NCBI GenBank assembly: GCA_001938485.1 | Contig: MQRK01212652.1 | Coordinates: 1-50,036, forward strand | Reading direction: 5' to 3' | Origin: Girardia tigrina | Taxonomy: Eukaryota | Length of the DNA stretch: 50,036 nt | Part shown: positions 1,405 through 48,136 of the stretch, piece by piece | How the letters are laid out: each line of letters opens with the position of its first letter | How positions within the stretch are numbered: position 1 is the stretch's first letter | Program-made: the position numbers and the translations under genes | The notes under the pieces: generated by a model | Seen by the model: the letters and a program-made list of their open reading frames with translations, nothing else | Database searches by the model: none | Told to the model about the DNA's origin: nothing

Positions 1405-1407
<3 letters not shown>

Positions 1408-1438
<31 letters not shown>

Positions 1439-4620: not shown

Positions 4621-4999
4621 TAGGGAAAATATTTGCAAGATTTTAAAAGTTGTTTAAAAAGCCAACATTTTAAACGTTTGAATTTTTTAAATTATTATAT
4701 GACAAAAATGAAAGTTAAATGATTCCCATATTTACTAATCCCTTTTGTGACCTTTTTTAGACAGCCATTGTAGAATAGCATGATCAATAGAATTGAAAAT
4801 GAAAAAGAAACTATTAAATAAATTTTATTTCCTAAAATAACAAGGTATAAGTTAAACTTTTATTAAAATATTATTTATAATCAAATTTTATAATCAACAT
4901 TTGCCTTCGGCCGGACAATGATGTACAAAATATTTATCATATGATTGCTACAACGCTTCCAAACGAAGAATGATATCATGGTATTCGTGTACAATTGAA

Positions 5000-6479: not shown

Positions 6480-7215
6480 GAGTAACTGGAAGGTACCCGG
6501 CTCAAAAGGGGTGATTGCGAAGGTTCATTAACAAACTGAAGCTCGATTTTGAGATGATTTGGAACGGGGATAATCATCAGTTCCCAACGGCTTAGAGGAG
6601 TGCAAAAGTGGTAACACTCTTCGAGGGAAAGGGTGCTAGGTTTGATTCGAATAATTATGGAGGGATCTTCCTCTTGGAAGTCGCTGACAATGTTTTTGCA
6701 CGAATAATCGAAAATAAAATGATGCCGTTGATGGAAGAAAGGTTAGACCCCTGGCAGTTTGGTTTGCGGTCGAAAAAAGGTATTATGCAAGCTATTAGTA
6801 AACTCAGCCGGATACAGGAAGAAGATCGATATGAGATGCAGATCGTATTTGTGATCTTCATCGTTTTGGAAAAGGCATTTGATAGTGTCCTATGTGAACT
6901 TCTGTAGACCTACCTGAAAAGATTCGACTCAACCGACAAGATTTGCTGCCTGATCAAGGAATTCCATGAGAGCTTTATTATCTCAGAGGGTGATTGTGAA
7001 TTTCTCATGGAAAGATATGTCAGGCAGGGATGTGCGATGGGACCTTGTCTTTTAAACTTGGTCCTCGATGAAGTTATCAAAACGGCGATACTGAAACGAT
7101 TCAGGACAGTAATTATCCTGATCGACGAGCATAGTGACGAATTTCAAGTCAATAGCCTTGCTAGTGCGGATGACCTATGTGTCGTGTTCTCTTCTCTCGA
7201 CAACATATTCGTGGA
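6480..7215 (+). mobile_element. RTE-like non-LTR retrotransposon, RT domain (5' piece)
   Basis: VTLFEGKG..NNYGGIFLL...WQFGLR...FIVLEKAFDSV...VRQGCAMGPCLLNLVLD...ASADDL, i.e. non-LTR RT domains 0-5, with in-frame stops. Confidence 0.92.
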
Positions 7216-10071: not shown

Positions 10072-11345
10072 TAGGCGAAAGTCATGTGCCTAACCGATCA
10101 CTCGGGGACTGGAATATCGCAAGTGATGTGTGGCGACAAAGTCATAAAATGAGTGAGTGAGTTCTGTTACTTCGGCAGTATATTGACCACATGTGATAGC
10201 TGCAGTCGGAATATCGGTCAGCGGTTGAGTTGAAGAATGAAGAAATTACGAGAATTCAAAGTAACATTGTTCCTTTAGTGCTGAAAAGAAGACTAATCGA
10301 ATGAAGCATTTTTTTCCGGTAGTGCATTATGGGAGTAAGTGCTCGGCAACATCTGAAAAAGAAGTACCTCGGTACCAGCTTTTCCTAATACCTGCACACG
10401 CACTGTTTTTGATAAAACTGCACTTGACAGAAAAAGTTAATTGGTTTGACAGAGATACATGTGGTACTAGTGAAACAGCGTTTTGTATTCTTTAAGTATA
10501 ATAGTCGGAAAGGTGTACATGAGATAAAAAGAGTATTAAACTCTGAAATGCCCTCAAGAAATAGAAGGATCAGCAGCCGTAAAAAGCAGTTGACGAAAGA
10601 GCGCATCGGCCGCAATATGCTCAGGGTATTTGGTGACCAAGAAGATTTGGTAGAATACCAGGAATGAGAGGAGAATTCTCGACACTGACGAGGAATTCAA
10701 ACACTTGATAAAATGAACTGTTTCTTGAAAGCTGATATAAGTAATTAAACAGAGAAAAGAGTATCCGAAAATGCTCTAGCCGCGTATCAAAAGAGTGCAA
10801 TGCACGTATCCATCTTGTTTCAAAGCTTTTGCGGAACAGAAGGAATTAAAAAGAGACATCAAAAACTTGCATATGGACACGATGCCACATCCTCAGAATG
10901 GTGACAAACATTTCCAATGTCCCCTGGAAAATTGTTGTAAGACCTATAAAACGGAGGTATGGTTAAAGCGACATTTATTGATCGATCATCAAACCCACGG
11001 CAATACCAGTGGTAATAGTGTTTCACAAAATAACATGGATGAAAGATGTACAGAATCTTCGAACCCGATCGCGATGCATGATGTGTTAACCCCCTCTATG
11101 GTACCACGGAGACGGACTCAGGATTGCTTCCAAGGGTAGTTCTCGACTTACGGTTATGTAATACAACTTATATGGGAATATTTCGGTGTCCCTTTACTCA
11201 TTATACAATATGTGTTTACACAGCCAAAGCTGTCCAGAATCACGGCAGGAGGGATCATGACTGGTCCTTTCTGACTTGGAAACCGAAGCGCACCCGTGCA
11301 CTGAAAGATCGTATTCTTGCATCTAAAGCCGTGCGAGAAAGTTAG
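10072..11345 (+). mobile_element. RTE-like LINE 3' piece (RT domains 6-7, thumb, three C2H2-like fingers), collinear with 6480-7215
   Basis: AKVM...VSEFCYFGSIL, FPVVHYGSKCSATSEKE, then QCTYPSCFKAF...LKRDIKNLH, FQCPLENCCKTYKTEVWLKRHLLIDH and FRCPFTHY...VQNHGRRDH. It resumes where the first piece stops. Confidence 0.82.
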
Positions 11346-11469
11346 TAGGCTTTGTATTGTCTATTTATGGTTTGTAACGGATACAGAGTCTATGGCTCAC
11401 TACCCTGTACGCCAATGCTGGTACATTAGTTTCTACGATACTCAGTTATCCATCCAGTTGGACAGGCTT

Positions 11470-12709
11470 ATTATATATATTATAAAAGCCCAAGTCACTC
11501 ACTGCTTCACTAACGCTGACGTAATCAAGCGAGATAAAAAAACCCCAGTGTGTCGGGTAGTATATATATCCGGCACACTATAAATAACCGATACATTTAT
11601 ATATTATAAAAGCCCAAGTCACTCACTGCTTCACTAACGCTGACGTAATCAAGCGAGAAAAAAATCAACAATCGATATCGATTAATCAATTTCATAATTT
11701 TGTATTAATTGAATTATTATCAAACAAAAATTAACATTTAGTAATTTTTGTCATTTGTTAAAGTCGAAAATTGTAAATTTATAATTATAAAGATATAAAT
11801 ATTTGTATGAAAAGTAATATATATATTATAAAAGCCCAAGTCACTCACTGCTTCACTAACGCTGACGTAATCAAGCGAGATAAAAAAAATCGACAATCGA
11901 TATCGATTAATCAATTTCATAATTTTGTATTAATTGAACTATTATCAAACAAAAATTAACATTTAGTAATTTTTGTCATTTGTTAAAGTCGAAAATTGTA
12001 AATTTATAATTATAAAGATATAAATATTTGTATGAAAAGTAATATATATATATTATAAAAGCCCAAGTCACTCACTGCTTCACTAACGCTGACGTAATCA
12101 AGCGAGAAAAAAATCAACAATCGATATCGATTAATCAATTTCATAATTTTGTATTAATTGAATTATTATCAAACAAAAATTAACATTTAGTAATTTTTGT
12201 CATTTGTTAAAGTCGAAAATTGTAAATTTATAATTATAAAGATATAAATATTTGTATGAAAAGTAATATATATATNNNNNNNNNNNNNNNNNNNNNNNNN
12301 NNNNNNNNNNNNNNNNNNNNNNNNNNNNNNNNNNNNNNNNNNNNNNNNNNNNNNNNNNNNNNNNNNNNNNNNNNNNNNNNNNNNNNNNNNNNNNNNNNNN
12401 NNNNNNNNNNNNNNNNNNNNNNNNNNNNNNNNNNNNNNNNNNNNNNNNNNNNNNNNNNNNNNNNNNNNNNNNNNNNNNNNNNNNNNNNNNNNNNNNNNNN
12501 NNNNNNNNNNNNNNNNNNNNNNNNNNNNNNNNNNNNNNNNNNNNNNNNNNNNNNNNNNNNNNNNNNNNNNNNNNNNNNNNNNNNNNNNNNNTTTACCTTA
12601 CAGCGTTAGTGAGGCAGTGAGGCAGGCAGTGAGTTACTTGGACTTTTATAATATAAAAAAAATTGAACCCCCGGCAAGAGAGGGCCGCGAAGCGGGCCGA
12701 GCGCGCTAG
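11470..12709 (+). mobile_element. Non-autonomous Helitron-like element with a tandem array of 5' ends
   Basis: TATATTATAAAAGCCCAAGTCACTCACTG 5'-end motif repeated (G of GCCC at 11488, 11612, 11834, 12061). 3' end has a GGCCGC-GAA-GCGGGCC hairpin (12683-12698) and CTAG|T (12706-12710). Confidence 0.7.
11600..12275. repeat. Near-identical ~222-227 bp tandem repeat, 3 copies, running into an assembly gap
   Basis: Direct comparison of the units gives periods of 222 and 227 bp. Confidence 0.97.
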
Positions 12710-16852: not shown

Positions 16853-18499
16853 CAGCTTGAGTAAAAATGTATGGTCAGTCTGTTTATGGTTTAAAATGAT
16901 AGATATAAAAGATAAAAAGCAATTTTTTGAAAATTTTTGAAATTAAGGTCTAGCTTCACATAGCTATTACACAATAAAGTTTTACACAGTTTTGGAATTT
17001 CGTCAATTATTATGGTGTCATTTTGTAGATTTTGTCTTTTTTAAATATATAGTTTCTGCGATATTACGTATAAATTTAAAATATTTATTTGATAATTTAT
17101 GAGGGAAAAGTACAAAAAATTATTTTTTAGTTTTATTAATACAAAATATTTTCGAAATGACCACCTTCCGTGGCTAAAATGTGTTCCACTCGACTTTCAA
17201 AACTTTTAATTGACTTCTGCAAGAATTTTGTTGATAGGCATTTGATCTTTTCAGTAATTTGTGCTTTCAACTCGGTAATTATTGATAGTACTGACGGATA
17301 AATATTATCCTTCAGGTAACCCCATAATACAAAGTCGCATGGATTCACATCCGGTGAATATGGAGGCCAATAAATCCATTCTTCTGTGTGCTTCTCAGAA
17401 TCTAAACCAATAATTCTTTCTCCAAAATGCTCGTTTAAGTATTCGAAAACATCGTATGTTCTATGCAGTCTTGTTCCATCTTGCATAAACCAATAATCGT
17501 CAATTTTATAAATCTCATTCATGAACGGGACCACTTCATCCTTCAATATGTCAATATATATTTTTGTATTTACGTTTTCGTTAATAAAGATTGGTCCGAT
17601 AATTATTTCTGATGACAAATCGTACCAAACGGTCACTCTTTTAGGATGTCGTGGCTTAATAGTCATTAAATGAAGATTCTCTGAACCACCAAAACGCCAA
17701 TTTTGTTTGTTTACGCATCCGCTTCGGTGAAAATGAGCCTCGTCGCTGAACCAAATTTTGCCGCAGTCGATTTTGTCTCTTTCCTTCAGATCGATCATCA
17801 TATTTGAAAATTCAAATCGTTTCTCATGAGCTTTTCATTAATTGGTTGATTGAATTGAATTTTAAATGGAAATAAATTAAGGTCCTGCTTCATTATACGT
17901 CTAAGAGACCTCCGTTCGATACTTAAAACTTCAGAAGCAATTCTTTTGTTTTCGTAATATTTGGCCACCATTTCTGCATTCTGTTTTCGGTTTAGCTCCC
18001 ATTGCATCTTTATCGTCTAGGATGCTTCCAATTCTAAGAAACTTTTCATAATTATTTGTTATATTTCAATATAATATCTATATTATTTCCCTCCCGTTAT
18101 ATTGTAATGTCATCCAAACTTTTTCTTAAATAATTTAATTGTTTCTTCTGCTGAAAAATCCACTTTGAAACAAGTTAAAACTATAAATGTTCGTTGATCA
18201 ATATTATATTAGTTCATATTACGAAATTCGCTAATAAAGGTATTGATTTTTTATATATTTAAATTTAAATGTAATATCACAGAAACTACATATTAAAAAG
18301 AAATTTTAATTTGAAACTTTTTGTTAAAAGACGAAATCTACAAAATAAAAACATAATAATGACGAAATTCCAAAACTTTGTGTAAAACTTTGTTGTGAAG
18401 CTAGCCTTTAATTTCAAAATATTTTCAAAAAATTGCTTTTTGTCACGTATCTATCATTTGAAACAATAAACAGACTGATCATAAATTTACCCCACCCAA
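16853..18499 (-). mobile_element. Tc1/mariner DD41D (rosa/Visitor)-like element with long (~230 bp) imperfect TIRs
   Basis: ORF 17136-17801 has IWFSDEAHF..G.VNKQNWR, MQDG, WPPYSPDVNPCDFVLWGYLK and GGHFE. The N-terminus is frameshifted. 16853-17085 is an imperfect inverted repeat of ~18255-18499, and the element is TA-flanked. Confidence 0.92.
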
Positions 18500-20984: not shown

Positions 20985-22266
20985 TTAGGTTGTTGCAAAA
21001 TCAATGCAGGTTTTTAAACCTAAACTTTAAACAAATGTAACTCAGCACAGAATAAACTTTATTAATCGAAATAAAAACCATCAGAAGCTATGCGTTTCTG
21101 CCAACGAGAAACAAGTTTATTGATGTCCCTAGTTTAGAACTCCTGAGTTCTGGATGCGATGAAAGCGTTAAAGGCTACTTTAGTGTCGTCTTGGTTTTTG
21201 AATCATTTTTACTGGAGGAACTTGTCCAGATGCTTGAAAAAATGGTAGTCGGTGGGCAAGAGGTCCGGTGAGTAGGGTAGATGAGTCAGAGTTTCGAACC
21301 CAAATTCGTTTAGCTTTTGTAGGATCGGTTTTGCGATGTGTGGCCGAGTGCTGTTGTGGAGGAGAATCGTCCCCTTCATATTGACCATTCTCTGGAACAT
21401 ACGTCGAAGCTCGAGGTGCATTTTGTCAATTTGTTGGCAGTACTTCTCTGCGGTGATCGATTCACTCGTATTCAGAAAGCTGTGATAGATGAGACCGGCT
21501 GCAGACCACCAAACAGTCACCATAATCTTCTTTTGGTAGAGTTTCGGTTTCGGAAAGTGATGAGGAGCATCATAGCGGTTCAACCATTTTGCCGAACGTC
21601 GCTGATTGTCGTAGAGAATCCCCTTCTCATCACACTTCATAATCCGGGACGTTCTCGTTGCGCAAAAAAAACGCGGAAGACACCTCAAAACGACGATTGA
21701 TTGTCATTCAATCAAATTTGTGAGGCACCAATTTTTCGAGCTTTTTTCGATTTTCCAATTTGCTTTAAGTGCCGAGCGACGGTTGAGGGATCAACGTTAA
21801 GCTCTTCTACGAGTGCTCGAAAAGTTGTGCGTGGATCGACTTCCACCAGCTCCTTCAATTCATGATCGTCAATCGTCGATGGGCGGCTGCCACGAGGCTC
21901 ATCTTCCATACTGGTATTGCCAGAGCGAAACTTTTAATACCAGCCTTGCACCGTGCATTCGTTGACACTTCCCTTGCCCCAAACTTTGTTGATGTTTCGA
22001 GTGGTTTGAGCTGCATTACGGTCTAGCTTTAACTCGTAGAAGTAAATGTTGCGAAAATCACGTTCCGACATTTGCTATTAAAATCGACATTATTAACAAA
22101 AGAAACATTATAATAAGGTTTAGACAAATATATCTAAGAGTATTAATTAAGCTTTCGAATGACTCATAACATTATACATTACAAAACATCATACATGTTT
22201 TAGTCGTATAACATTGTGGTAAATACAAAACAATCAAAATCCTGTATTCCTTTTGCAACAACCGAA
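20985..22266 (-). mobile_element. Full-length defective mariner (cecropia-like), 1282 bp
   Basis: TA-flanked TIRs TTAGGTTGTTGCAAAA / TTTTGCAACAACCGAA. Transposase runs from ATG 22071 (MSERDFRNIYFYELKL...) to stop 21062, with CDEKGILYDN, MVTVWWS and YSPDLLPTDYHFF. Contains stops and frameshifts. Confidence 0.95.
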
Positions 22267-22528: not shown

Positions 22529-25121
22529 CATGTTTAACATCATATACATCATTAATTCAAGGGTTAATATTTCAAACAGTTTGAGTAATCGATGTTTAGA
22601 ATAATGTATTCATAATATATAAGTAATTTCTTCTAATATAACATAATGATACACATTCCTTTATAATAATATAATAATAATAATTTCTTTATAATCATAG
22701 CTGCAACAATTGATAAATACAACGAAATAAAACATATACAAAATAAATACACATTGTAAAAACAACATTTAAAATGTGAGTAAAAATTATAAATGAATAA
22801 ATCACAATAAAAATGTAACAATATTTTTCGGAGTAAAATATACTTATCGCTTTTTGTTTTAATGTCGTTTTAAAAAACGTTGAAATGAGAATATTTTATT
22901 GTTATTAATATTGATAAATTTTACTTTTTTTAAAAAAACAACTTCCAAGGGAGTCCAATTAAAAATGTTGATGGGTGCCTCAAAATTTGGTTTAAGAATG
23001 TAAATTAAAATTACTTTACTTCATGTTGACCGATCTTGAACACATTCGACAAGTATTGTTCAGAATAACATAGACTAGAAAAAACCTTTAGATTTGCTAA
23101 AAGATTTATGTATTTATTGAATGACTGATATTACATATGAGTTTTATATTCACTTCAATAATAAATTAAAATAAAATTCAATGATTTTTTAGAAGATAAT
23201 CTCAATAAAAATGCAAGTGATAAAAGTGAAGAAGAATAAGATGAAGATGAAAGCAACCGAAGATTCTCATTTTATCAAGTAATCAGATTTTGTCTTTTAG
23301 AGCTGCTGAAAGAAAAATAAATCGGAACAAAATTTCATAATTTCGAATGATGTATTATTAATAATTTTTATTTTGTGGGAATTTATCTTTTCAAAACTCA
23401 CGGGGAGCTCTACATTTTCGTATACTTCATTGGATGAGTGTTGATTTTTAACATTCTTGATTGTGATAACACACATTTCTAATGAAAGACGTTTTCCACT
23501 GACCAGGGGTGTTCTCGCTTTTGCTCCCCGGGAGCCTTCACAAGCCATAAGGCTCCGGTGACTTAACGGTTGGATATCGTTGATAACAAATGTCCTTTTA
23601 ATTGAATGAATATATTTTGCTTTTTTTTATTTTGAAAAAATATAAAATATAAACTTTTTAAAAAACAGTTATAAAACGGATAAATAATAGACTATAATAA
23701 AATGATATATGATCAGTGATTCTCATGGCGGTTAAAAATTTACAAAAGAAAAAAATAAGGAATTTTAAAAGAATAATAAAACTATTATGCAAGTACTATT
23801 AAAAAAGCAACTTAAAAGAATTATAAAGAAAAACACCAATCCGAAGAATCGCTTTTCATCTTCTCACAATGAGATCCGGTGAGAAAACATATTTTGTTAA
23901 AGAGTTTTATCATATCAATTGAACTTTCTCTAAGTTGTTTAATGAGACTTCCTGGGGGTGTTAATTAATGGTGTCAGTATTACCATTCATTGAGGCCACT
24001 TAAATGAGTCTGAACGTTTGCGGAGACTGTATTGTGAAACAGTTCTTGAGACTGTCCTTATGTAGTTTGAATTCATTCGTGAGTTTCCTTGTGGTTCAAT
24101 GCGTTTAATAAGTGGTCATAGTTTTTGATAAATTACCGGAACCGGTGCCTAACACAACGAAATAAAAATAATTCCATTGTCTTCTTTTTAAATCTAGATT
24201 TTATTTTTTGTTAATTATCGAAAAAATATATAATATTAGAACAATTATTAAGGGGAAAATATTATAAATGATTTAATGTAATACAAATTCATATTTTTTT
24301 TAAAGTTGATATCTTGAAAAGAATCAGTTTGTTTTAATTATAATTTTAAAATGTAATTATTTTACAAATTACTATTTAAATTTTTTTTATAAAATCTGGA
24401 ATTTTTTTAAAATAGTGATATTTGATGAATTGCTGCTTTATGGAAACTTAAAAAAACGAAGTATCGATAAAACACTGAGGATATGATCTATATTCATAAT
24501 TGGTTCTGGAAACGGACTGCTTGGATCATCTTGCTGCAGCAGATTCTTTTTCAGGAATAGAGTCGGTTCTAACTGAATGTTCGAGAATTCGATATGTATA
24601 TCTTTATATTTTTAGAATTAAAAATTCTAAAAAAGAAGGTTAAAGAAAAAATAATTTTTATTTAATAAAGATTTAATATTTAAAAAGTAAAGAATGTGTT
24701 AATTATGATTAAAAAAATGTTGTTTAAAACGTTGAGGTTGTTTTTGAGTTGATTTAAAAAGGTTTGGTATCTACCGTTGTAAAAGTGTATTGAAAAATTT
24801 TTAATAGAGTTTTTGATTCGATTTAATTTACATTGATTTGAATTATGATCTATTTCGTGTTGACTTCCAAACAAAACCATGTTTTCTGATTACTGGTATA
24901 CAAAGTCAACGGAGAAATTGAAAACTACAAATATTAATTCCAAAATACCCATAGAAAACGTCAATAACAACTGTGAAATTTTTCCTTTTGAAATTTTCTT
25001 AAATTTTATTGTGGAGTTTGGTTGAAAATAAAGACATTGAATGGCAAATTTTAAAGAACTGATTTCGAGAATTCGAAATTCCAAAATGGATTACTCAGGG
25101 TTATTAGAAACCGTCAATTGG

Positions 25122-25403
25122 AAACTCACTATCGATTATGGAAAGAAATCGAAACTCGAATCCGCAGTTTATCCGGCTTCGCAAATCGCTACTGCGGTCG
25201 TTGAACCATACAATTCAATCTTGACGACTCATACGACTCTTGAACACTCGGATTGTGCGTTTATGGTAGACAATGAAACGATTTACAAAATCTGCCGCTG
25301 GAATCTCGATATCAAACGGCCGACTTATACCAATTTAAATCGATTGATCGACCAAATAGTCAGCTCGATTACCGCGTCTCTAAGATTCGACGGCGCTCTC
25401 AAT
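25122..25403 (+). pseudogene. TUBA: Alpha-tubulin internal fragment (approx. residues 156-249)
   Basis: [52 protein letters not shown]...[24 protein letters not shown]. No N- or C-terminal tubulin sequence nearby, and several highly conserved residues are substituted. Confidence 0.95.
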
Positions 25404-25406
25404 AAA

Positions 25407-26234
25407 TAGGCCCAGCACAATAAGAAAAACAACAATTCAATGGTGGACCATGCTGCCTCCGTCCGATTCTCGGGGCAACCTGAGGGTCGGGCGGAACAGG
25501 TGTTCTTTACATTTCAAAATTGTCCTAAAAATCCGACTGTTCAAAACATTCAAAATATCAATCTTCCATCTGGGTGGGAGAAACATAATTCTAAAAACAA
25601 CTAGCCAAACACAACATACAATAAACACCATTAGAAAATATTTCTCACACTCTATAATCACATTCATCGTCACTTTGCATTAATAAATTATAACAATCAA
25701 ATTGATAGTTTTAGAGAGACTTGTTTCTCCTCACAATATTTATTAATGAGAAAAAAATAAATCTCGATAACAAACTAACTTACCATAACCAAAAGCATCA
25801 TGAAATATTTTTTAAAGAAACCTAGAAAATTAAAATATATAAATAGTACAGAGAATTCTTATAGAAAATAGGTACTCAAATTTTTTCTATTATACCTAGT
25901 TCGATCAATAACCTCTAAGATTCATATTAAATAAAAAAACACAATGTTCTAACAAATTTTATCTTGAACAACATTTATTACTAGTACGAAAAAATGTTGT
26001 ACATAATTTATCAATTGACCATCCTTGGTTAGCAATTAGTGCCTCTCTAGGAGTGAGTGTTACCGTAGACGACATTACTTTCAAAAGTACGCTGTTGCAG
26101 TGTAAAATTATGATAGTTGTGAGGAATATTTTAAATTTGGTATGTTGAAATTGGTTTGTTGAATTTTGTATGTTGAGTTTAGTATTTTGAAATGTGTTTC
26201 TCCCACCCAGATGGAAAATTGATATTTTAGATGT
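25407..26234. mobile_element. Non-autonomous element with imperfect inverted arms and TAG terminus (Academ- or hAT-like, unresolved)
   Basis: Starts TAGGCCCAGCACAA right where tubulin similarity stops. The motif AAAATATCAAT.TTCCATCTGGGTGGGAGAAACA occurs at ~25552 (+), ~26195-26229 (-) and ~40105 (+). The right end is lost in an N-gap. Confidence 0.5.
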
Positions 26235-33242: not shown

Positions 33243-33292
33243 GTAAGATATCAGAAAATTAAACAACTCAAATTTTAAAATACTTATTTCAG

Positions 33293-33585
33293 TATCAAAA
33301 TTAATTGGAGCATCAGAAACATCATCGGGTCCCAACTATAATCCCTGTAATTTGATGTCCCCTTTTTTCCAATCAAGTCGTTATGATAGATCAAGCAATT
33401 TATTTTCCGGTAATTCTCCAATAAACGGAATGCTTTATCAAAGTCATTCTCAAAGACGGCGGAGGAGAATTTTGTTCAGTCAAGCCCAAGTGTATGAACT
33501 TGAGAGACGATTTAAACAACAAAAGTATTTGTCAGCCCCAGAACGAGAACATCTGGCATCCCTTATCAATTTAACTCCTACCCAG
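33293..33585 (+). CDS. nkx2-1: NK2.1-class homeobox gene, coding exon 2 (homeodomain 1-44)
   Basis: In frame VSKLIG...[44 protein letters not shown]. Donor CAG|GTAAAA at 33586 (phase 0). Confidence 0.95.
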
Positions 33586-36500
33586 GTAAAAATGATTACT
33601 TATCGATTTGCACCGGAATTATTTTAATAAATCAATAATTTTCCACTCAAAGAAAACAAATTAATGAATTTAATTTATTATTTAGAAGTTTCAAAATTAA
33701 TTAAAAATGGTTTTCATCAATTAATAAATTTTTTTATTCTATAGAAAGTGACATCTTTTAAATTAAACTTTATTTCAATGTAATAATTAATTTGGTAAAT
33801 TAAAATAAATCAATGTATCATTTGATTAATATGTTTAAATTAATAATATTCCAATTTATTGTAAGTTAATTTTATTAAATATTAAAATTAAATTGTATTA
33901 TTTTAAAAATATGAAAAATTGTATTTTAACATTTTTGTTTCGAAAATTTCTGATAGTTATTCCTTGATTTCGTATAAGTTTTTCGCGTTTAAAATACGAT
34001 TAAACATTGTTCCATTGCAAAAGTTTAATCGAAGAATGTTACTATGGAGAAAATGATTTTAAATATATGGATCTTCTCAAGACTAATCGAGATTAGTTTT
34101 CATTCAATATGGTGCATTCCACTTTTATGCTTTCTAAGTTCTAGAGAATCATTTTTCCTTTGAATTAATATGATTACTGTACCAAAACGTTGTAGTACAA
34201 ATGGAATGACTTTCCAAATAATCTACGTCAGTAATATTGCAGAAAGACCACATAATTGATAAGGGTTTTTAATTAATTATCTGTTGATAGTTAAAAGTTT
34301 TGACACAATAATTAAGGGTTTATTGGCATTAATATTTTAAAGTTTTGCTCGTAACGTGATGTTGTTATTAAGTATTTGTTAGTATTTTTATATAATTTTA
34401 TTAACAATGTTTTTAATTATTCTTGTCATTATAAAATTTATTTTTTATAATTATTTTTATTAATAACAATATTATCATTGTAATTATTTATTTATCTACA
34501 GCTTTAATCCGAAGTACGACAATAAATTTAGCAGGTTCTTTAAAACTTTTAAGTAACTTGTTCTCATGAAAGTTTTATAAATCTTAAGTTCATTACCTTG
34601 AAAAAGATTATATTGTACTACATCTGTTCAAAATTTAATTTGTTCTAAAAATATAAGTATAATTTTATTTAACTTAAATGAACTTTCATTTGTTTTATTA
34701 TTTTTAATCCTCCAGAAAGACTTCAAATAAAATTTCTTTTCGTCTGTTTCTTCATTTGACGGGGATGATTAAGTTATGGATAAAAAACCTTTACTATGAT
34801 TCCTAACAAATTTAAAGTCATCAGAATCGAATCTGGATAGTGTTATTAAATTGGAACTTAATGATATAAACTGTATTTAGAAAAATTTCCTTATCTTTAA
34901 TACTGTGTATTAACAGTTTTGACTATATAATAGTTAAAACCGTAACTTGCTTCATGAAAGACATTATTCAACCTTAGAAGTTAATATAAATTACCTGAAA
35001 AGAATGACTTGGTTTCTTCACAATCGTATAAAATAATTTTCCTAAAATATGGTCCTATATACAAGTCATGGACACAAAAACTCATTAACTAATCATTTAC
35101 ATATTACCGTCCTTTCTGAATATCCCGTTCTGATGATCCAGTAAAATATCTTTTAGTAAAAGCAGATTGATTAAATATAATGGATCATCCGCTAATGATA
35201 TCGTACATAGAAAGAATTCTGTTGAATAAAACGATAATCAGAAGCATTTTTTTCTTAAACATAAAATTATTTTGTAGATTGTGATATTCAAAAAACGTGT
35301 ATCAAGAGATGAAAAGTTTTTTTATGTAAATTTGTAATAATTCCACAAAAAATTGTTAAAGTTGAAGTCTGAAAAGCTATTTCAAGTAATTTAGAAGTAT
35401 TATTTTTTTAAGGGCAAACGGAATCATAAATGAAACCTGAAAGAAAGATTAAGAATAAACTAAATAATCAAAATTATGTGTATTTAAGATAGTTTGGGGA
35501 TTATTACGGTTTCAGTTGGTTTAGCCAAAGAAATGACATATTTTTTAAAATCCCTATATTAAAATTTAGTTGTTGGTCTTTTACATTCAGTCAGAAAACA
35601 ATCTTTGTGCAAAGATTAGTAATAAGACGAAATAGATGATTCTATCCAAACATAATTTAAAAACATTTACAAATATTCAAGAAGACGAAAATATTAAATC
35701 TTTATATTAAATAATTTAAATAGTCAGGCAAAAGTTGGTGGAAAGAAAATTTCGATAATTCTAAAATAAAATTGTCACATAAACAATTGTTTTATTAATT
35801 AAAAAGCTTTATTTGGTCATATAATATTTAACTTTTTCTTTAATTAATTGCCGCTCTAGGTCACTTTTATAAGGGAGTTAAATTTTACTTTTTTGTGAAA
35901 TTATCAAAAATATTTTGTTTCCTGGAAAAATATAACTATCATTATGATTGGTTTGAAGAAATATGCCGCAAATTTATGAATATAAACATGCTTATTGGAA
36001 GCTTATTATTATAGGTAATATGTGAAAGGAATAACATATTCTGAAGCGGTGAAAAGAAAAAAACTAAAAGAGATAAAAACAACTAATTAAAAAATCGATA
36101 AACAAATCTTAAACCTATATGATAGGCACATGATAGTCATCAAGAGTCTTGTAAAAGATGTCTAAGGAAAAAGGGTATTTTCTAAGAGCTATTCGAATGT
36201 CAGCTTTTATCTTTTTTAAACACGATAATTTGGTCGTTAAATATGTAATTATTCTAATGATCAATTGATGTCTAAATTGTATAAAATGTGTCATTTTTAA
36301 TTTAATTGGTTTGAGTCATAAAGTTTATAAATATATGTACACAAATCATACACAAATATCACATGATCATTAATACGTCACTGTTTTAGTCCCAGAACAT
36401 CTTTTTGATGCCAATATACATCTTTTATATTATCTTATTTATTTCCTCATAATATTTAAGATTTAAACATTATTTTGATTTGTCTAAAATAGTAATACTC

Positions 36501-37829: not shown

Positions 37830-38474
37830 GTGAAAATCTGGTTTCAGAACCATCGTTACAAGTGCAAACGGTCTCAGAAAGACATTGAAAAAGATCAACA
37901 GAAAAGAGAAATGACGGGAATCAGCACAATCCATAGTCCGGTGGACAGTGTTGCCAGTAATGACCACTGTGAGACCAGGCACAGCGTTTGCAATTTATTT
38001 CCCAACCAACAATCCAAAAGCGTTTCATCACCAATAGTAAAAAACACAGAAAACTTAGTGGAAAATTCCTTATCTCAAGTTAAAGTGGAAGATCAAAGTG
38101 AAATGTCTTTTGCTTTTTCTAAAGTTATATTACCGGGAAAATTCACAGAAAAACCGAATGAATCTCAAATAAAAGATGGCCTAACATCCAGTACAACGAT
38201 GGACTGTCCGAGTATGTCTCAATACTATCAGCATCTGCAATCCAGATACAGTTATAATATCAATATATCCGACTTGAGAGCTCCTTCACTCATCCCTGAT
38301 TTGGATTCTATCAATAAATCTGAATCTTCTTTAGTTTTTCCTTCCATATTTACTAGCACTGAACAATTGTTACCAATAATTTCAGAATCAGGATCCATAT
38401 ATCCTTCAGAATTTCCCAATTTACCATTTCCCAACAACGACTCCTATCACTTTAGCACCAACAAACCGTGGTGA
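37830..38474 (+). CDS. nkx2-1: NK2.1-class homeobox gene, coding exon 3 (homeodomain 45-60 and C-terminus)
   Basis: Acceptor TTCTAG at 37829, then VKIWFQNHRYKCKRSQKD with the NK2-diagnostic Tyr54. Ends TNKPW*. The joined CDS is 1167 nt (388 aa). Confidence 0.95.
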   Translation: MKIWFQNHRYKCKRSQKDIEKDQQKREMTGISTIHSPVDSVASNDHCETRHSVCNLFPNQQSKSVSSPIVKNTENLVENSLSQVKVEDQSEMSFAFSKVILPGKFTEKPNESQIKDGLTSSTTMDCPSMSQYYQHLQSRYSYNINISDLRAPSLIPDLDSINKSESSLVFPSIFTSTEQLLPIISESGSIYPSEFPNLPFPNNDSYHFSTNKPW

Positions 38475-40097: not shown

Positions 40098-40192
40098 AAC
40101 ATCTAAAATATCAATTTTCCATCTGGGTGGGAGAAACACATTTCCAAATACTAAACTCAACATACAAAATTCAACATACCAAATTTAAAATA
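40098..40192 (+). repeat. Further copy of the CCATCTGGGTGGGAGAAACA element arm
   Basis: Reverse complement match to ~26130-26234. Confidence 0.85.
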
Positions 40193-40272
40193 AAAAATTA
40201 TTTAAAATAAAATAAAATTATTTAATTTAAAATAAAAATTATTTTAAAATTATTATTGTATGGAAAAAATTA

Positions 40273-40508: not shown

Positions 40509-40767
40509 GAAATTCTATTTGGAATCAATTTAAATTTTTTGTTCTGATTTTAAAGAAAAATTTTAATCAACAGACAACAATTTATCAATATGCACTATTC
40601 TGGAATGTATTTGAAATGTTTTTAATTTATTAAATAATTTACTAAATGTATAAAAACATTTAAAAATACATTCCAGAATCGTGCATATTGATAAATTGTT
40701 GTCTGTTGATTAAAATTTTTCTCTAAAATCAGAACAAAACATTTAAATTGATTCAAAATAGAATTTC
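40509..40767. repeat. 259-bp near-perfect palindrome (foldback)
   Basis: The left arm GAAATTCTATTT...AATCAACAGACAACAATTTATCAATATGCAC.ATTCTGGAATGTATTT is mirrored by the right arm with almost no spacer. Confidence 0.93.
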
Positions 40768-43700
40768 TGTTTCGAAGTATATATTCACAGAAACAATAAA
40801 AACTGCAGTATAATTGCAGTAAGTGATGGAGGGAGGTATAAGAGAGATTTAAATAATTAATCAATCAAGACTAACTAATTAAAACTACAAGTTATTTGAT
40901 TGGTAGAACTAAATTAAAATTGCCGAACTATACATGACGGAAAGGAAAAATGATTACAAAGATAAATATTAACACGAACAGAATGCTACGCTTTTTACTA
41001 TTTCTTTACGTAAATAAACAATAATTAAGAGGAAATTTTGATTCATATTAATCTATATTCCCTTGGGAAAGTAAATCACTGTAGTCAGTGACTGTTGCTG
41101 TTGGAGAACAAAAACTCAAGGATTATAAATATTGTTTTGCAAAGAAATACATTTTAGAATATCATAATTTTGAGAACAAGTTTTGTCGTTTTCTCGCAAA
41201 TTTTGTAATACTGGAAGAGATTTTTGATAAACTAATGGGAAAAATATGCTTGAACGAATCAACAGCACGAGAGACAATTTTTTATATACAGAGAAGATTT
41301 ATAGTATTATCATGTAATAATATAATTACAGATTGTTCGAATGCAAAAGGGACACGAACTAATTGGTAAACAAAATGACTTAAATAAATATGAATAAAAG
41401 TATGTTATCAATTTAATATTATCAATAATCCCATAATAAAATAAGTGATTTATTAATTTCAAAGTATTTTCAAGAATATTTACCATGAAATATAACAATG
41501 AAAAATAACAAACTGTAGACTTTTTAATAAACTGGTTGGTTTTATGATAATAAAAATAATCTTCAAATTTTAGAAACAAGTGAATTTATACAAATATATT
41601 ATTAATATATCATTGAGTATTTTGGATAAAGGTAGTATATATCATTTCCAGTGTCAAAAGTACGAAGTCTTGTAAGAACGAGAAATGTAAAGTTACTTAC
41701 GCTTTAGAATCGTTATAATTAAACACATATTTTCGAAAGAAAATTTCGATCACAATTAACTTTGACGTTAACTTCATCAATAATTCTCTTCGTTAAAATT
41801 GTTTCAGTTTCAAATTGATTTTTAATGAAAGTTTATAAATGATTTTACAGAGATTTTGGATAGTAAAATTAGCATTTATTTAGTGATCTCATGGTTTAAG
41901 CAACTAGTTTTATTTCATTATTTATCTCAAGAACCTTAAGTTATCTGCTGTTTATGCAGAAACAAGAGTTAGGTTGAAATATTTTGTTTCTATTAAAATA
42001 TTCCTTTTGTTATTGAATGACAATAATAAATATTTCAAATGCCTAAATAACACCTTTGTGGATTATAATGGCAAAATGAATGTTTCAATTTACAATTAAC
42101 TGAACTTAAATCACAGTGTCAAAATAAAAGTTATACACGATCGAATTAGAATGTCCTAAAGCTTGAAAAATATTACAAAAATAGAATTTCTTAAATATCT
42201 AAAAAATATTGAAATGTATTTGTACAAAAGTAGAATAATAAAATTATTGTTGAAACCTAGGAACTTTCGATCATTAAATTGTATTTGATAAGACAGAAAT
42301 CACCAAAATGCAAATGAAGATTAATAATTTGTGGATATTTCCATTTTCAAATGTTTGCGTGGGTTCGAACCATTATACTAATTCTAGCACTGGTAGTAGC
42401 CCCTTGTTGCTTTTAATACATCAAAATTCATTCGTCAAATAAATCGAACCTTCTACTTTAACGAGGAAAAACATTCTGTCAATCTTTAAGAAAAGATATA
42501 TTAATTGGTGTTCGTCAGTAACTAACCTTTCGTTGAGAAGAACAAGTCACAGATTTGTAAGTTCTATATTGAAAGAAAATGGTGACTTATATCAATTTTA
42601 AAATGAGATTAAAAATTTGTTTTGAAATTTCAGAAACAAAAATAATTGTCAGAAAAAAATAATTAAATAAACCTACTTAATTTCTGTGGCATAACTTTAA
42701 TTAAGATTCAAAAATTATGATACGACAATAAACTAAACTGTATTGAGACAGAAACATAATCTAAATTTTATGGATTATCATAACAAAGTTGTTATTGTTA
42801 AGATTAAAATATAGACTTTAATTTTTTTAAAAATCCTGAACTATATGTTATATATGATATCTATTCGCATCTATAATCATATTTTTTGCCTCAGTAAAAA
42901 ATTATTATTTTATACATGTTTTATATGTATCAGAAGCAGTGGCGCAAATCCAAGGGGGGCACCGGGGCCTTGGACCCCCTAACACAAACAGAGAGGGGCC
43001 ACCATGTTAAAGAAGTACATTAAAAAGTACATAATAGATTAAAGCCCCTGCTTCAGTCAACCAGACTTAGTTTCAGGATATTCAGCCACGTGCGCTCTTT
43101 CTTCACTGTCAAGCTCACTACCTAACCTTGGTAATTCAAGATGCCGTAAACGCAGTGAAAGGCCTAGATGATTTCATAAATCTAATCAAAGATTTAATCA
43201 ACTTTGTCCGCTCCTCACCCAAACATCTGGTTCATTTCAGGAACATTGCTGTCAATTTAGAAATGGCAAATGCCAAACTCCGCCACCTTTGTCCTACCCC
43301 CTAGAATTTACGTTTACGTTCACTGGTGTTTAATAAAGAGTTTGCTCAACCACTGATGAAACTTCTGGAGGAATTAACAGAAGAAAGTACAATGGAAGGG
43401 GAAGTGCGTGCCAAAGCCTCAGGATTCAGCTCCGTTATGGCGACGATCGACTTTGTTTTTTGGCTTATAGTGTCAATAGAACTGTTTGAGTACATAACAA
43501 AGCTCAGCAGGCTGTTCCAAATAACGACCCTCCGTACAGAGCAAGGAAAAGAAGCTGAAAACATCACTCTTAAGATTTTGATGGCTTACAGAAGAGAAGA
43601 ACAGTTCAACAATGTTTGGAATGAAGCTCTTGACCTGCAGGAAAAGCTAGGGGCTGTGAGACCTACTCTGTCACACCAAAGACAGATTCCAGCTCGATTC

Positions 43701-43985
43701 TATGGTCCTGCTCTAATATACCAACCAATGGGACCTGTGAAACACTATCGAATACAGTACTGAGAAGTTCTTGACCATGCAATTACTTCAATGGAATCTC
43801 GTTTCACTTGCCAGGAGCACATCGTTGTTGAATCTATGGAGAGCATTATCCTACTCCAACGATGTGAATGTTAATCGTCTGAAGAATCAGCCATTTGTAC
43901 AGGAAAATCTACCAAATGCAACATCCGTGACAAATATGAAGCTCGCTATCGATGCCTTCCATGACCTTGGTCGGTCAAGAGCGCT

Positions 43986-45679
43986 TGGTGCGGGACTGGT
44001 ACAGTGGATATGTAGTTGCAGCGCCTTTGGATTGATGGGTGGACTTCGGGTCATGGGGAGGTACAAATAGATACCTTTAATTTGTATAATCCGGGGGGCT
44101 CGGTCGATCGGATTCCGTTGCCGCCGCTGATTTTCATCTGCATTGTGTCGGCCACCAAATACACCGAATCGAGCTCGACACAGAGCTGACCGGTCATCAT
44201 CGATTTAAAAGATAATTGCAATTGTAAACTGGAGTTAATCTCGAGACTACTCCAGTTGAAAAGTAATCCGACCATTTGATAATTAGAGGAGCGCCACACA
44301 TTAAGAAACTCGCAGCCAGGATATGGCAGACTGATCACGTTAAATTCGCGATACCGATCGACTTTTCTGATGAGCTGATTTGTAGTCCAAATATCATCTT
44401 TTATTCTCCAACATCAATTCGAAGATATATTTGATCTTAAATGTTTCCAGAAGTTTTTTGTCACCGCCCCTAATTTGATCAAACGTGTCCTCGGTCAAAC
44501 GCGCTTGGCCTCGGTCACTCTCGCTATTTCCGCCTCCACTACTGTCGAATACGGACTGGAAATACTGCTATCCGTATATTTCAAATATACCACTGAGTGT
44601 GCTCGACCGACATATAAATTTATTGCGATATGTCATTGTTGGAACCGCAAACCATATCTAGCAGCGCTTGTTCAGCGATCGGTAAAAGACGATAGACTTT
44701 CCTCGTCAGTCGATAATTTCTGATACAGAACAACGATATGAGACGGATAATGCGAACAGAAAATCTCGTCGTAATTATTAATCAATTGGCAAATGTAATT
44801 CTATGAGAACAATTCTTCACAGATTTTATTAATCCTTGTCGCATCAGTTTGAATAAATTGATCAAAAAACTCTCGTGGAACACAAATCACAATCGACCAT
44901 CGTATTTGGACTTAGAAAACAATGACAATTCAATTTTTCGGTCAAATTGGTGACGTCTAATCAGATAATTCAAATTTTCTAAATTGAATTTTTTCTTTCA
45001 AATTCAAAACCGAAAGATTGGCTTTCAAACAATTCGGATTGTCGATTTTTTTTACGTTTTTATTAAAATTTGTTGTCAGTTTATTCAAAGTTCGATTTTC
45101 ATCCCAATGAATATTTTCAATGTTTTTCATTGAACTGAAACGTCTCTGGATTTTTTTATTCACGAATTCAGCGTTACAACACTCCTCAAATAACACAAAA
45201 TGAAAGGAAGCTCCAAAATTTTTTATTTTATTTCTTAATCAAAATATCAACAAAATGACAATTTTTGATTAAACTAATTCGATAAAACAAATCGAATTTT
45301 AACATTAAATTTTTTTTACAAATTTCAAATCGAATTTTTTTTGTGAAATTAATTTTTATAAAAAAACAAATAATTGATTGAAATCAACAAAAATTCAATT
45401 TTTTAATAAAATTTTAATCAAAGTTTTCAAATTCCCTTAAGATAAAAATTGAGTCAAATATTGATTCCGAAATTGTTCGTTTTAATTCATTTTGGAATTT
45501 GAATAATTTATTTTTCTTAAAATTTCTTTCGAATAAAATTAGATAGAAAAAATCAGAATTTCAATTTCAACCATTTTTGATGGTTTAAGATCATGCAAAT
45601 TACGAAGAATTAGTTGTTCGAATTCCAAATATTCTTTTAACATTTCTATCAGATAGTAATTAAAATTTATCGCAAAACA
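43986..45679. other. 1694-bp insert with TG...CA ends and 5-bp TSD GCGCT, carrying host-gene DNA
   Basis: GCGCT at 43981-43985 and 45680-45684. Removing the insert and one repeat restores the hAT frame R-A-L-I-P-Q-V. Confidence 0.85.
44200..44900 (-). pseudogene. MTMR14: Myotubularin-related protein 14 (Jumpy/EDTP) 5' half, frameshifted
   Basis: Minus-strand pieces ICEELFS*NY, FCSHYPSHIVVL, FAVPTMTYRNKFICRSSTLSGIFEIYG, FDQIRGGDKKLL..IKYIFELMLENK, FGLQISSSEK and RYREFNVISLPYPGCEF...GLLFNW. These match recalled MTMR14 motifs (CGHYPRHIV, ICRSATLAG, FDKVRGYDIKLL, DLMVENKK, TSSEK, SIPYPGCEF, GLIFNW) in order. Confidence 0.88.
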
Positions 45680-48136
45680 GCGCTCATACCTCAAGTTATT
45701 CGTTTGGTTCAAATCTATGACTTTTCCAGCATCAAACGGAAATTTAGAGCGTACATTTTCTGTACTACGACGCATCAAATCCTATATTCGCTTCAAAATG
45801 TCACAGAAGAGACTAAATCACCTACTTGTTTTGAATGTGTACAAAGAGCTTCTAGACTTTCTTGAAATTGTCTCAATTCTGCGCTCATTTATAATGGTGA
45901 ATGATATCCGTAGCAATACCTTTGCAATGTCATAGTTTTGATTGTCGCAATTGTCATATTTCATTTTGAAATGTGCAGGGCATCATTCGCAAAGACAGTT
46001 GATTTTGTCTCACCAAAGTGTGTGCATAAACGTTGTTGTAGTAACCTACCACTACTATAATAATTATGAATAAATTATTTATAATAGATCCAATAAAATG
46101 AATATGAAGAAATAATCAGATGTTTGGATTTATTCGTACTTTTATTGTGGGTTCAGTCATGGGATGCGTATTACGTCAAATTTATAGCTTATTGTAACTT
46201 GGATTATGTTTCACGACATTCTCGATACTCTTCGTGACCCGTGTGACAATGGGAATGACATTCACCACCAAATACCACCATCTCATCAGACAGGAACCGC
46301 TCAAATTGCAATTATTCGGATCCTTGAACTGTATCATGATATTTGCCATTTCAATGTTGGCAGTTTTGATAATGCTGATTAAAGTACATCGATTTCGAAC
46401 TAGGTATAATTTATTGGTGCCCGTTATCGCAAAAATACAAATGATATTTCTATTAACCTTTCAAACTCTAACGATTAGAAAGAACGATTATTCAAATGGC
46501 AACTTCAACTATAGCTTTCAGCGTTCAACTTTAAAATGAAGTCAAAGAATTAATTGATGATTGCCAACAACAGAACATGATGTGACATCATATGCCGAAA
46601 TAATACAATTCTAAGGTTCCTATTCAGTGCCTAAATGTTCTGGACCAGCCGATGTCTGTGGATTTCGGTCGGATTGAGAAAATACACAAAATTGTTTTTC
46701 CAAGATATAATTTTTAAATATTCAAGTAACTAATTCGGATAATTTAAAATTATAAATAGTAATCAATTAAATGATGCAAACCTACAAAAGTTTTGGTAAT
46801 GATAAAATAATATAAATTAAATAATATTTTGTAAGGATTCCTGTCGGATATTATTTACTTCATTCATTATAAGATTGTATTTGAAATTGATAAAAAAATC
46901 AAATAGCCATTTTCTTTCCTTTGCCAATTGAATTGACATTTTCAGTTTTTTTTGAATATTGTCGTAAATAAAATCAATTGGTAACAATGGTTTATCTTGA
47001 AAATTTACTGAAATATCTTTAATCAATTATAACTAGAAAAATCCGTATTAATGTTCAAGTGATCCGCGTAATAAAAAAAGTAGTGTTCACTAAATAGTCG
47101 AAATGGAAAGTAGTGTGACCTATGGATTTCTAATGATAAACTACATCGTAGAATGCAACCATCAAATTATATTTATTGAATTTCTAAATAAAAAATTATA
47201 TAATGTGACTCGAGTAGCATCCAATAAATTATTTTTTATATAATAATTGAGGAAATTCTATTGATTCTAGATTCATTAGTTCAATATTACGAATTAATAT
47301 CAGAGTCATTTGTTTGAAGACTCTAATCATGGTATGAGATGTATTTTCTATGGAATGTCATGAATTAATAATCAGAAAACATGTGTTATTTATCAAGATT
47401 CTATAAATAATTTATATTCAAGTCGGTTGTTGACCCTATCTGCGATGAAGTTACGACCATTACGTTCTACATAATGCATTCAATAGTTTATGAAAACGAG
47501 AAACTGATTTTAAATTTAGATTCAATCTCAGGGCATTATTTAATATTTAAATGAAACATTAATATAAAGAAGCAACCAACCATTAAGAACATAATCAGTG
47601 AAAAGTTGATTAAATTTTGAAGAATTGACAAGCATAGCCTGTAGCATTTGGTTAAATATGGCCAATATTTCTCTGTTCAGTCTCAAATACGGATGGACAG
47701 GAATAGAAACGCCTAAGCTTCTCTAAATGTTTAAAACAAATATATATATATGTGTGTTTACAAGAATAATTGTATTATTTATTTAACCCTATTGAAATAT
47801 TGTGTTAATTCAAATCAATCAGTCATTTGTTTTGATAAATATTCCAATTTAAATATAAATAACGTTTAAAATGTATAATCGTTTGATTGGTCATGTAAAA
47901 CATTAACTTAATTTTGTATCCTAACAGCACGAGTATCAAAATTACAGAGACTATTAAAAACAAATAAATATATTTTTGGTAGTCAATAGATTAATTAAGG
48001 TTATTTATTAATTAAAGAAATGTTTTGAGTAAAATATCAAAAATCTATTGAAATGTGATAAAATTTTCACGAAAATCCGTGTAGGAATCGTCAAAATCGC
48101 CATTATTTGAAATCGGTGTTAATTTAACCATTTTTT

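What the first reader, a model, noticed from the sequence alone, without database searches (positions are those of the whole stretch)
43981..45684. Host genomic DNA (MTMR14 5' half plus upstream exon-like DNA) inserted like a transposon: TG...CA ends, 5-bp TSD, no TE sequence
Seen: a 1694-bp insert splits the hAT ORF precisely, with GCGCT duplicated. It could also be read as a 6-bp AGCGCT repeat, which would remove the terminal CA. It carries a frameshifted, 3'-truncated MTMR14 (likely ATG 44900) and about 780 bp of upstream DNA with exon/intron-like pieces (45539-45679, 44957-45196). There is no poly(A), no TIR and no LTR pair. Known: TG...CA with a 4-6 bp TSD is the signature of LTR/retroviral-type integrases, whereas LINE retrocopies are 5'-truncated with A-tails and Pack-type elements have TIRs. 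Inference: integrase-mediated insertion of ordinary chromosomal DNA, a solo-LTR-like unit assembled from host genes, or capture at a staggered break. This could be an undescribed gene-fragment mobilisation route.
Basis: partly seen in the sequence, partly recalled or inferred. Interest (0 to 1): 0.75.

Follow-up and report, generated by a model that had tools for sequence, protein, structure and literature searches.

The report
Multicopy mosaic of spliced gene pieces
A 1.7-kb insertion that split an old transposon is one copy of a repeat family stitched together from intron-free front ends of host genes, probably spread by a retrotransposon's enzymes, a known route to gene shuffling seen here in an unusually bare form.

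Summary
The insertion is real. Contigs bridge both junctions, and paralogous empty hAT copies carry AGCGCT once, so the 5/6-bp TSD is genuine. It is not unique chromosomal DNA. Contig depth over the MTMR14 part is 10-42 times that of the junction contig, with many variant contigs, so it is a dispersed family. The MTMR14 piece (44900-44193, minus strand) is colinear with its closest relative and lacks introns at two sites where relatives read into introns. It stops before the catalytic motif. Contig break points show a mosaic: a 207-bp end segment, the MTMR14 5' part, a probable 5' piece of a LIM-type gene, AT-rich DNA and a 105-bp segment shared with other contigs. The left end (TGGTGCG) seems shared by other copies; the right end is untested. 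There is no TIR, LTR pair, PPT, A-tail or Helitron end. Best reading: an RNA-level chimera mobilised by LTR-type integrase, as a cargo-loaded solo LTR or an LTR-less unit (0.45). The main rival is a TPRT/Penelope-type 5'-truncated copy (0.25). New variant of retroelement-mediated gene-fragment shuffling; the engine is not identified.

The parts
43074..43985 (+). Decayed hAT transposase gene, part left of the insertion (left limit approximate)
   Evidence: Open frames. Paralogous contigs join it directly to 45679 (table 5). No Pfam hAT hit for 43074-43298 or 43305-43763.
43980..43985 (+). Left target-site copy, AGCGCT (GCGCT at 43981-43985 in the 5-bp reading)
   Evidence: Empty paralogues carry it once.
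43986..44044 (.). Left terminus starting TGGTGCG (3' end in cargo orientation, reading ...GCACCA); probably the shared end of the family
   Evidence: The X2 loose-end consensus before 44002 (5 contigs, agreement 0.74) holds the same 7 letters at a one-base offset, with unrelated letters beyond (table 7). Simulation gives 0.74 for 17 shared plus 13 unrelated letters, against 0.90-0.95 if all are shared. Inference.
44045..44192 (.). GC-rich segment of unknown origin, high-depth, not MTMR14
   Evidence: 43986-44192 is 52.7% GC against 29.5% for the window. No Pfam hit in 6 of 6 frames, no PDB hit, no fold signal (z 0.57 and 0.01), no Rfam hit. X4 loose end at 44045.
44193..44900 (-). Processed (intron-free) 5' coding part of MTMR14, broken by small deletions and stops, ending before the catalytic CX5R motif
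   Evidence: X3 record 16 leaves the window at 44193; its loose letters translate by hand to the next residues of P0002 (10 of 11 identical; table 7).
44901..45029 (-). Leader-like DNA upstream of the MTMR14 ATG, ending at an internal junction at 45029/45030
   Evidence: X1 (2 contigs) and X2 (1 contig) leave the window to the right at 45030; X3 and X4 record 18 leaves to the left at 45029 (table 7).
45029..45156 (-). Probable 5' piece of a second host gene, whose contig continues in frame into a C-x2-C-x3-I-x-D motif like the start of a LIM domain
   Evidence: Record 18 (1888 nt; letters 69-196 match with 11 differences; table 8). Frame. Hand translation of the loose end; the LIM consensus is recalled, not tested.
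45157..45574 (.). Very AT-rich spacer of unknown origin, also present in diverged copies
   Evidence: 45030-45574 is 21% GC. Site depth is 1.3-17 times the junction contig. X4 record 26 covers 45105-45562 with 26 differences and 28 gaps.
45575..45679 (-). Right segment shared with contigs that have a different interior: a terminal module or a third gene piece (weak LisH-like frame)
   Evidence: X4 loose end before 45575; variant at 45596 in 9 (X1) and 12 (X2) contigs. Pfam ARMC9_LisH E 0.23, far below cut-off, so a lead only.
45679..45684 (+). Right target-site copy, AGCGCT (GCGCT at 45680-45684)
45680..45935 (+). hAT transposase C-terminal part, right of the insertion
   Evidence: PF05699 E 3.2e-4.

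Best explanation
The insert is an old, decayed copy of a dispersed non-autonomous element made mostly of host mRNA pieces. SHOWN: true insertion with a 5/6-bp TSD into a hAT copy; multicopy; MTMR14 part colinear and intron-free; internal break points at 44193, 45029/45030, 45575 and about 44045. INFERRED: (1) the reverse transcriptase of an LTR retrotransposon switched templates among co-packaged RNAs and joined the 5' parts of MTMR14 and a LIM-type gene, in one orientation, between element-derived end segments; (2) the chimera was then copied repeatedly in trans; (3) an integrase joined its CA-3' ends into a 5-bp staggered cut, giving TG...CA and GCGCT twice; (4) this copy is either a cargo-loaded solo LTR left by LTR-LTR recombination or a unit that never had an LTR pair. 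The MTMR14 piece lacks the catalytic motif, so no phosphatase can come from this copy.
For: TSD and junctions (tables 5, 8). Per-site depth relative to the junction contig is 10-42x at the 8 tabulated sites from 44053 to 44803 and 1.3-22x at the 8 sites from 44886 to 45596, in both X1 and X2 (16 of the 40 listed sites used). Up to 22 contigs carry one variant (44743, X1), whereas the central hAT bins are covered by one contig. Anchor spacing against P0002 differs by -34, +3, -1, -10 and -6 nt, so there is no intron between 44761 and 44233; three of these losses match letters that other contigs have and the window lacks (tables 4, 5c). Relatives read into introns before SSSEK (45 of 134 fail a crude contiguity pattern) and after FDWxx (15 of 143 rows by eye, plus the closest genomic hit P0001). 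Multi-gene chimeras, stronger 3' truncation, no poly(A) and secondary amplification are described features of LTR-mediated retrocopies (PMC5131818, section 5). The left end appears shared among copies.
Against: No LTR pair and no polypurine tract followed by TG on either strand; described LTR-mediated retrocopies keep both LTRs. TG...CA depends on the 5-bp reading; the 6-bp reading fits equally and removes the CA. No segment could be tied to a known LTR element. The right ends of other copies were not among the loose ends shown (289 rows hidden). X2 depth falls from the left end (7878) towards the right (about 360-940), as 5' truncation would give; X1 is flatter. The tool warns that summed contig depth is no copy number, and the identity bands include hAT paralogues. 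The host species' own MTMR14 intron structure was not seen. No listed piece bridges the 45029/45030 junction. How the tool computes 'agreement' is my assumption.
Confidence: 0.45

Rival explanations
1. Target-primed retrotransposition (LINE or Penelope-like). The 207-bp GC-rich segment is the 3' recognition module (pLTR-like or LINE 3' end), the host pieces were captured upstream of it, and this copy is 5'-truncated at 45679 with a short TSD. TG and CA are incidental.
For: The shared end is the 3' end in cargo orientation; X2 depth declines towards the 5' end (table 2). The right segment may be a gene piece rather than a terminus (weak). Penelope pLTRs are 193-218 bp and host DNA is captured in 0.9-1.5-kb spacers before the 3' pLTR in Adineta (PMC3846280 section 6).
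Against: No A-tail or tandem tail. No exact hammerhead core in the insert and no one-mismatch core in 43986-44192; no Rfam match. TSDs in the Penelope passages read are 8-10 bp. No RT or endonuclease similarity in the 207 bp. X1 depth is not clearly 3'-biased.
Confidence: 0.25
2. The insert is an internal fragment of a larger cargo-rich element (for example a giant gypsy-type element), or an aborted cDNA that begins at the primer-binding site (TGG...), pasted into a staggered break or joined by one-ended integration.
For: The left edge begins TGG, as a primer-binding site would (own knowledge). Giant Burro elements of planarians carry many host-like domains (PMC6431247 section 7). Multicopy depth would follow from the parent element.
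Against: Low agreement of the X2 loose ends suggests different flanks, not one common upstream sequence. No tRNA 3'-end match in the 3 searchable supplement files of PMC7962491 (1 file not searchable). MTMR14 is not among the Burro domains listed. No 3' LTR or PPT. The organism is not shown to be a planarian.
Confidence: 0.14
3. DNA-level capture by a Helitron or a TIR-poor Pack-type DNA transposon that collected promoters and first exons.
For: Several 5' gene pieces in one orientation with AT-rich DNA between them; multicopy Pack-TIRs exist in animals (PMC8277862 abstract).
Against: No TC...CTRR ends or 3' hairpin. A TSD is present, which Helitrons do not make (own knowledge). No TIR. The MTMR14 part is intron-free.
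Confidence: 0.08
4. One reading: a single piece of ordinary chromosomal DNA inserted once by an integrase or by break repair.
For: Host-gene content, no recognisable TE protein, real TSD.
Against: Multicopy, mosaic and processed.
Confidence: 0.03

Closest known systems
LTR-mediated chimeric retrocopies in animals (PMC5131818)
   Same: Partial intron-free gene pieces, 3' truncation, no poly(A), two or more parent genes joined, further amplification as a non-autonomous unit.
   Different: There the cargo replaces internal ORFs between two LTRs. Here the unit between the TSDs is only 1.7 kb, with no LTR pair, no PPT and no recognisable retrotransposon sequence.
Solo LTRs of gypsy/BEL elements; Burro giant gypsy elements of planarians (PMC6431247)
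   Same: TG...CA with a 5-bp TSD and no internal repeat (solo-LTR hallmarks, own knowledge); Burro carries host-like regulatory domains.
   Different: About 0.85 kb of the unit is recognisable or probable host coding sequence. No full-length parent was found. MTMR14 is not among the Burro domains in the section read. The host taxon is not established.
Penelope-like elements that capture host DNA (PMC3846280)
   Same: A roughly 200-bp module at the 3' end, a kilobase-scale captured spacer, a short TSD.
   Different: No pLTR pair, no hammerhead core, shorter TSD; the cargo here is intron-free while Penelope can keep introns.
Pack-TIR/Pack-MULE and Helitron gene-fragment capture (PMC8277862 abstract; Helitron features from own knowledge)
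   Same: Multicopy unit carrying pieces of host genes.
   Different: No TIRs, no Helitron ends, TSD present, processed cargo.

Membership tests
LTR-mediated chimeric retrocopy | Intron-free partial gene cargo without poly(A) | tested here: met
   Introns inferred from relatives; the host's own gene was not seen.
LTR-mediated chimeric retrocopy | Both 5' and 3' LTRs flank the cargo | tested here: not met
   No terminal direct repeat (82 of 300 shuffles as good); self-BLAST shows no long internal repeat.
LTR-mediated chimeric retrocopy | Microsimilarity at the switch points | not testable with these tools
   Needs the full parent sequences; only 30-letter loose ends were shown.
Solo LTR | TG...CA ends with a 4-6-bp TSD | tested here: inconclusive
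   Met in the 5-bp reading, lost in the equally valid 6-bp reading.
Solo LTR | Same sequence occurs as paired LTRs of a full-length element, next to PBS and PPT | not testable with these tools
   No genome held; collection scans found no relative.
Solo LTR | Both ends shared by dispersed copies | tested here: inconclusive
   Left end probably shared; right end not visible in the rows shown.
LINE-type processed pseudogene | 3' poly(A) or tandem tail | tested here: not met
Penelope-like element derivative | pLTR with hammerhead ribozyme core | tested here: not met
   No exact core in the insert, none with one mismatch in 43986-44192 (motif recalled); no Rfam match at E up to 5. Decay could hide it.
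Pack-TIR / Pack-MULE | Terminal inverted repeats | tested here: not met
   1049 of 2000 shuffles score as well.
Helitron | 5' TC, 3' hairpin plus CTRR, no TSD | tested here: not met
   Ends are TG/AACA or TG/ACCA, hairpins no better than -1.8 kcal/mol; TSD present.
Burro element | Giant gag-env-pol polyprotein between LTRs | tested here: not met
   No such ORF in the insert. Descent from such an element could not be tested.
Functional MTMR14 | CX5R catalytic motif and open frame | tested here: not met
   Homology ends at 44193, before the motif; several breaks.

The most novel reading that the evidence does not exclude
A family of compact elements with no LTR pair, TIR or tail, built almost wholly from the 5' ends of different host mRNAs between two short fixed termini, copied by reverse transcription and inserted by an integrase through CA-3' ends. 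One end would be a primer-binding-site or tRNA-like CCA. This would be a minimal exon-shuffling vehicle of an undescribed build, still exchanging cargo between subfamilies.
Probability: 0.17. Interest if true: 0.75.

Novelty: new variant of a known kind. Interest (0 to 1): 0.45.

Why it matters
Retroelement-driven capture and amplification of host gene pieces is known, so the core finding is not a new principle. What is unusual is the packaging: a 1.7-kb unit with a clean TSD, mostly host-derived, with no LTR pair or tail. If both ends prove fixed across copies, it would define the minimal cis-ends needed to mobilise mRNA chimeras and show a gene-shuffling route that LTR-pair and TIR finders miss. 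In practice, such copies will be mis-annotated as an MTMR14 gene-family expansion. I found no paper on MTMR14 capture by a mobile element: 'MTMR14'+'planarian' gave 0 papers, and 'MTMR14'+'transposon' gave 7, none on capture by title or abstract start. The library lacks the main Burro paper.

Tried and rejected
No genome is held. No RNA holder listed: X3 and X4 are only guessed to be RNA, so nothing is claimed about expression. Collection scans found nothing: viral contigs, metagenomes; the one bacterial hit L001 is a chance 21-mer. Word-index protein searches gave no hit for the 120-aa frame among longer proteins or for the homeobox 3' exon used to place the taxon, so the organism is undetermined; 'planarian' is my guess from AT content and recall. 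Hit P0003 is a spurious bacterial repeat protein. ESM Atlas gave no usable hit (best 0.85). PDB searches were empty or at chance level. No tRNA in the window. My early idea that the left edge is the MTMR14 HC..R motif was wrong: MTMR14 ends at 44193. The 93-aa upstream frame looked unusual against mononucleotide shuffles (6 of 500) but not against dinucleotide shuffles (58 of 500). The deletion joints in X1/X2 inside the insert do not have splice-type ends (table 5; 2 rows hidden). The PBS idea found no tRNA match. Earlier scan findings: nothing returned in 6 of 6 answered look-ups. The Burro genome paper (Grohme 2018) is not held; it and its supplements may list MTMR14-like cargo or LTR ends, and my recollection of them could not be checked.
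Full report
Setting. The window is AT-rich animal DNA (29.5% GC) with assembly gaps and many transposon remains. No genome is held and the taxon was not established. A planarian is my guess, from composition and recall only. The main outside evidence is one lay of contigs from 4 of 16 listed runs on 42900-46200 at 85% likeness: X1 and X2 (guessed DNA, two samples, one study) and X3 and X4 (guessed RNA, one sample). One of them may be the source sample, and the tables are cut (318 variant rows, 289 loose-end rows and 1096 pieces not shown).

The insertion is real. The insert is 43986-45679 with GCGCT on both sides, or 43986-45678 with AGCGCT on both sides; the sequence cannot choose between them. 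Contigs with 0-1 differences bridge the left junction in 4 of 4 runs and the right junction in 2 of 4 among the listed pieces (table 8). Paralogous hAT contigs (14-54 other letters per piece) join 43979 to 45679 with six letters fitting either side, in X1 and X2 (table 5). The frame to the right matches the hAT dimerisation domain just under cut-off. No piece spans the whole insert, and no listed identical contig covers 44452-45581.

It is a repeat, not unique host DNA. The central hAT bins are covered by one contig (depth 243.9 in X1, 118.8 in X2), while bins inside the insert reach 1711-9747 and 362-7878 (table 2). At 16 of the 40 listed variant sites, depth relative to the junction contig is 10-42x from 44053 to 44803 and 1.3-22x from 44886 to 45596. 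Single variants are carried by up to 22 contigs. The tool warns that summed depth is not copy number, so I claim many diverged copies, probably tens, and no figure. At several sites every X1 and X2 contig differs from the window (for example 44251 and 44305), so this copy has private changes and looks old.

The MTMR14 piece is processed and truncated. The 120-aa frame has 135 hits (one, P0003, is spurious), and 4 of the 10 clusters looked up carry MTMR14 or myotubularin names. The closest, unnamed P0002, aligns at E 2e-28. Distances between six anchors differ from P0002 by -34, +3, -1, -10 and -6 nt: the window only loses letters, and nothing intron-sized is present. The -34, -1 and -10 losses match letters that other contigs have near 44682, 44398 and 44362/44353 (tables 4, 5c). 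Genome-read relatives run into introns just before SSSEK (45 of 134 fail a crude pattern, some mis-scored) and just after FDWxx (15 of 143 rows by eye, plus P0001, the closest genomic hit); the window is continuous at both. This points to an RNA step, though the host's own gene was not seen. Homology ends at 44193: X3 record 16 leaves there, and its loose letters, translated by hand, continue as P0002 does (10 of 11 residues). The catalytic motif is not in the insert.

It is a mosaic. Read on the minus strand it has five parts. (1) A 105-bp segment, 45679-45575, shared with contigs of other interior; its LisH-like frame is only a lead (E 0.23). (2) AT-rich DNA. (3) 45156-45029, matched by an 1888-nt contig in X3 and X4 that leaves at 45029 in frame into a C-x2-C-x3-I-x-D motif, like the start of a LIM domain (frame; motif recalled). 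X1 and X2 contigs leave in the other direction at 45030, marking a junction. (4) The MTMR14 leader and 5' coding part. (5) A 207-bp GC-rich segment, 44192-43986, with no protein, RNA-family or folding signal. Five X2 contigs clipped at 44002 have a consensus holding the same TGGTGCG as the window's left edge, with unrelated letters beyond and agreement 0.74. A simulation gives 0.74 (0.69-0.79) for 17 shared plus 13 unrelated letters at 10% divergence, and 0.90-0.95 if all 30 are shared at 5-10%. The left edge is therefore probably a family terminus, on my assumption of how agreement is computed. The right ends of other copies were not visible.

Mechanism. There is no TIR, terminal direct repeat, PPT, A-tail, Helitron end or hammerhead core. 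Spliced 5' pieces of several genes in one orientation, 3'-truncated, tail-less and amplified, match LTR-mediated retroposition by template switching (PMC5131818: passages and section 5 read). TG...CA with 5 bp fits an integrase (own knowledge). The mismatch is the missing LTR pair, which that paper expects; a cargo-loaded solo LTR or an LTR-less derivative would reconcile it. I give this 0.45. A target-primed route is the main rival (0.25): the shared end is the 3' end, X2 depth falls 5'-ward, and Penelope elements have roughly 200-bp pLTRs preceded by captured host spacers (PMC3846280: passages and section 6). Against it stand the short TSD and the lack of a tail or ribozyme core. A fragment or PBS-terminated cDNA of a larger element (0.14) is suggested by the TGG start and by Burro's cargo habit (PMC6431247: passages and section 7). 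It is weakened by the varied flanks and by no tRNA match in PMC7962491 (supplement search only, 3 files searched, 1 not). DNA-level Pack or Helitron capture gets 0.08 (PMC8277862: abstract and outline only) and a one-off capture 0.03. PMC8532177 and PMC11410931 were read as passages and added nothing specific.

Novelty. This works like a known process, retroelement-mediated gene-fragment shuffling, but fails the membership tests for a standard LTR retrocopy, processed pseudogene, Pack-TIR and Helitron, and solo-LTR status is untested. Nine literature searches (listings only, except the papers named) showed no report of MTMR14 capture, but the main Burro paper and its supplements are not held, and Repbase-type libraries could not be searched. 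Verdict: new variant of a known kind, interest 0.45. The bold case, a minimal LTR-less integrase-mobilised mRNA mosaic with fixed ends, has probability about 0.17 and would merit 0.75. A table of copy ends and TSDs from a long-read assembly would decide it.

Noticed in passing
window 25041-25409 (+): Isolated intron-free alpha-tubulin-like fragment (Pfam Tubulin E 4.7e-9), CpG-rich like the insert and followed by a MITE-like repeat. It may be a second processed gene fragment of the same kind; its boundaries and TSD were not worked out.
   Followed up: partly
window 33247-33627 and 37830-38474 (+): NK2-like homeobox gene with an intron in the homeodomain (Pfam Homeodomain; subfamily label recalled). 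The hAT and the insert lie about 5 kb downstream.
   Followed up: partly
window 25546-26234 and 40098-40199: MITE-like family: 81-nt inverted arms 527 nt apart, with a further copy next to the N gap at 40074.
   Followed up: no
window 17136-17834 (-) and 21209-21703 (-): Decayed Tc1/mariner transposases (DDE_3 E 7e-11; Transposase_1 E 3e-25); inverted arms at 16865-16960 and 18394-18488 frame the first.
   Followed up: partly
window 11469-12275 and 12617-12660: 224-bp tandem array (3 copies, 97% matches) running into an N gap, with an inverted partial copy on the other side.
   Followed up: no
window 40509-40767: Near-perfect palindrome: 129-nt arms, 89% complementary, 1 nt apart.
   Followed up: no
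window 6908-7240 (+) and 10780-11139 (+): Reverse-transcriptase fragment (RVT_1 E 1.3e-4) and a C2H2 zinc-finger frame, probably LINE remains.
   Followed up: partly
hAT joints 43252-45996, 43972-45981, 45826-45947: Other hAT paralogues carry internal deletions of different sizes, a set of non-autonomous derivatives.
   Followed up: no
X4 record 22 and X3 records 16-17 (44130-44837): A less-decayed lineage that keeps segments the window copy has lost; record 22 already has the 44193 junction. Several of its variant letters have zero depth in X1 and X2, which is unexplained (filtering, strain difference or assembly loss).
   Followed up: partly
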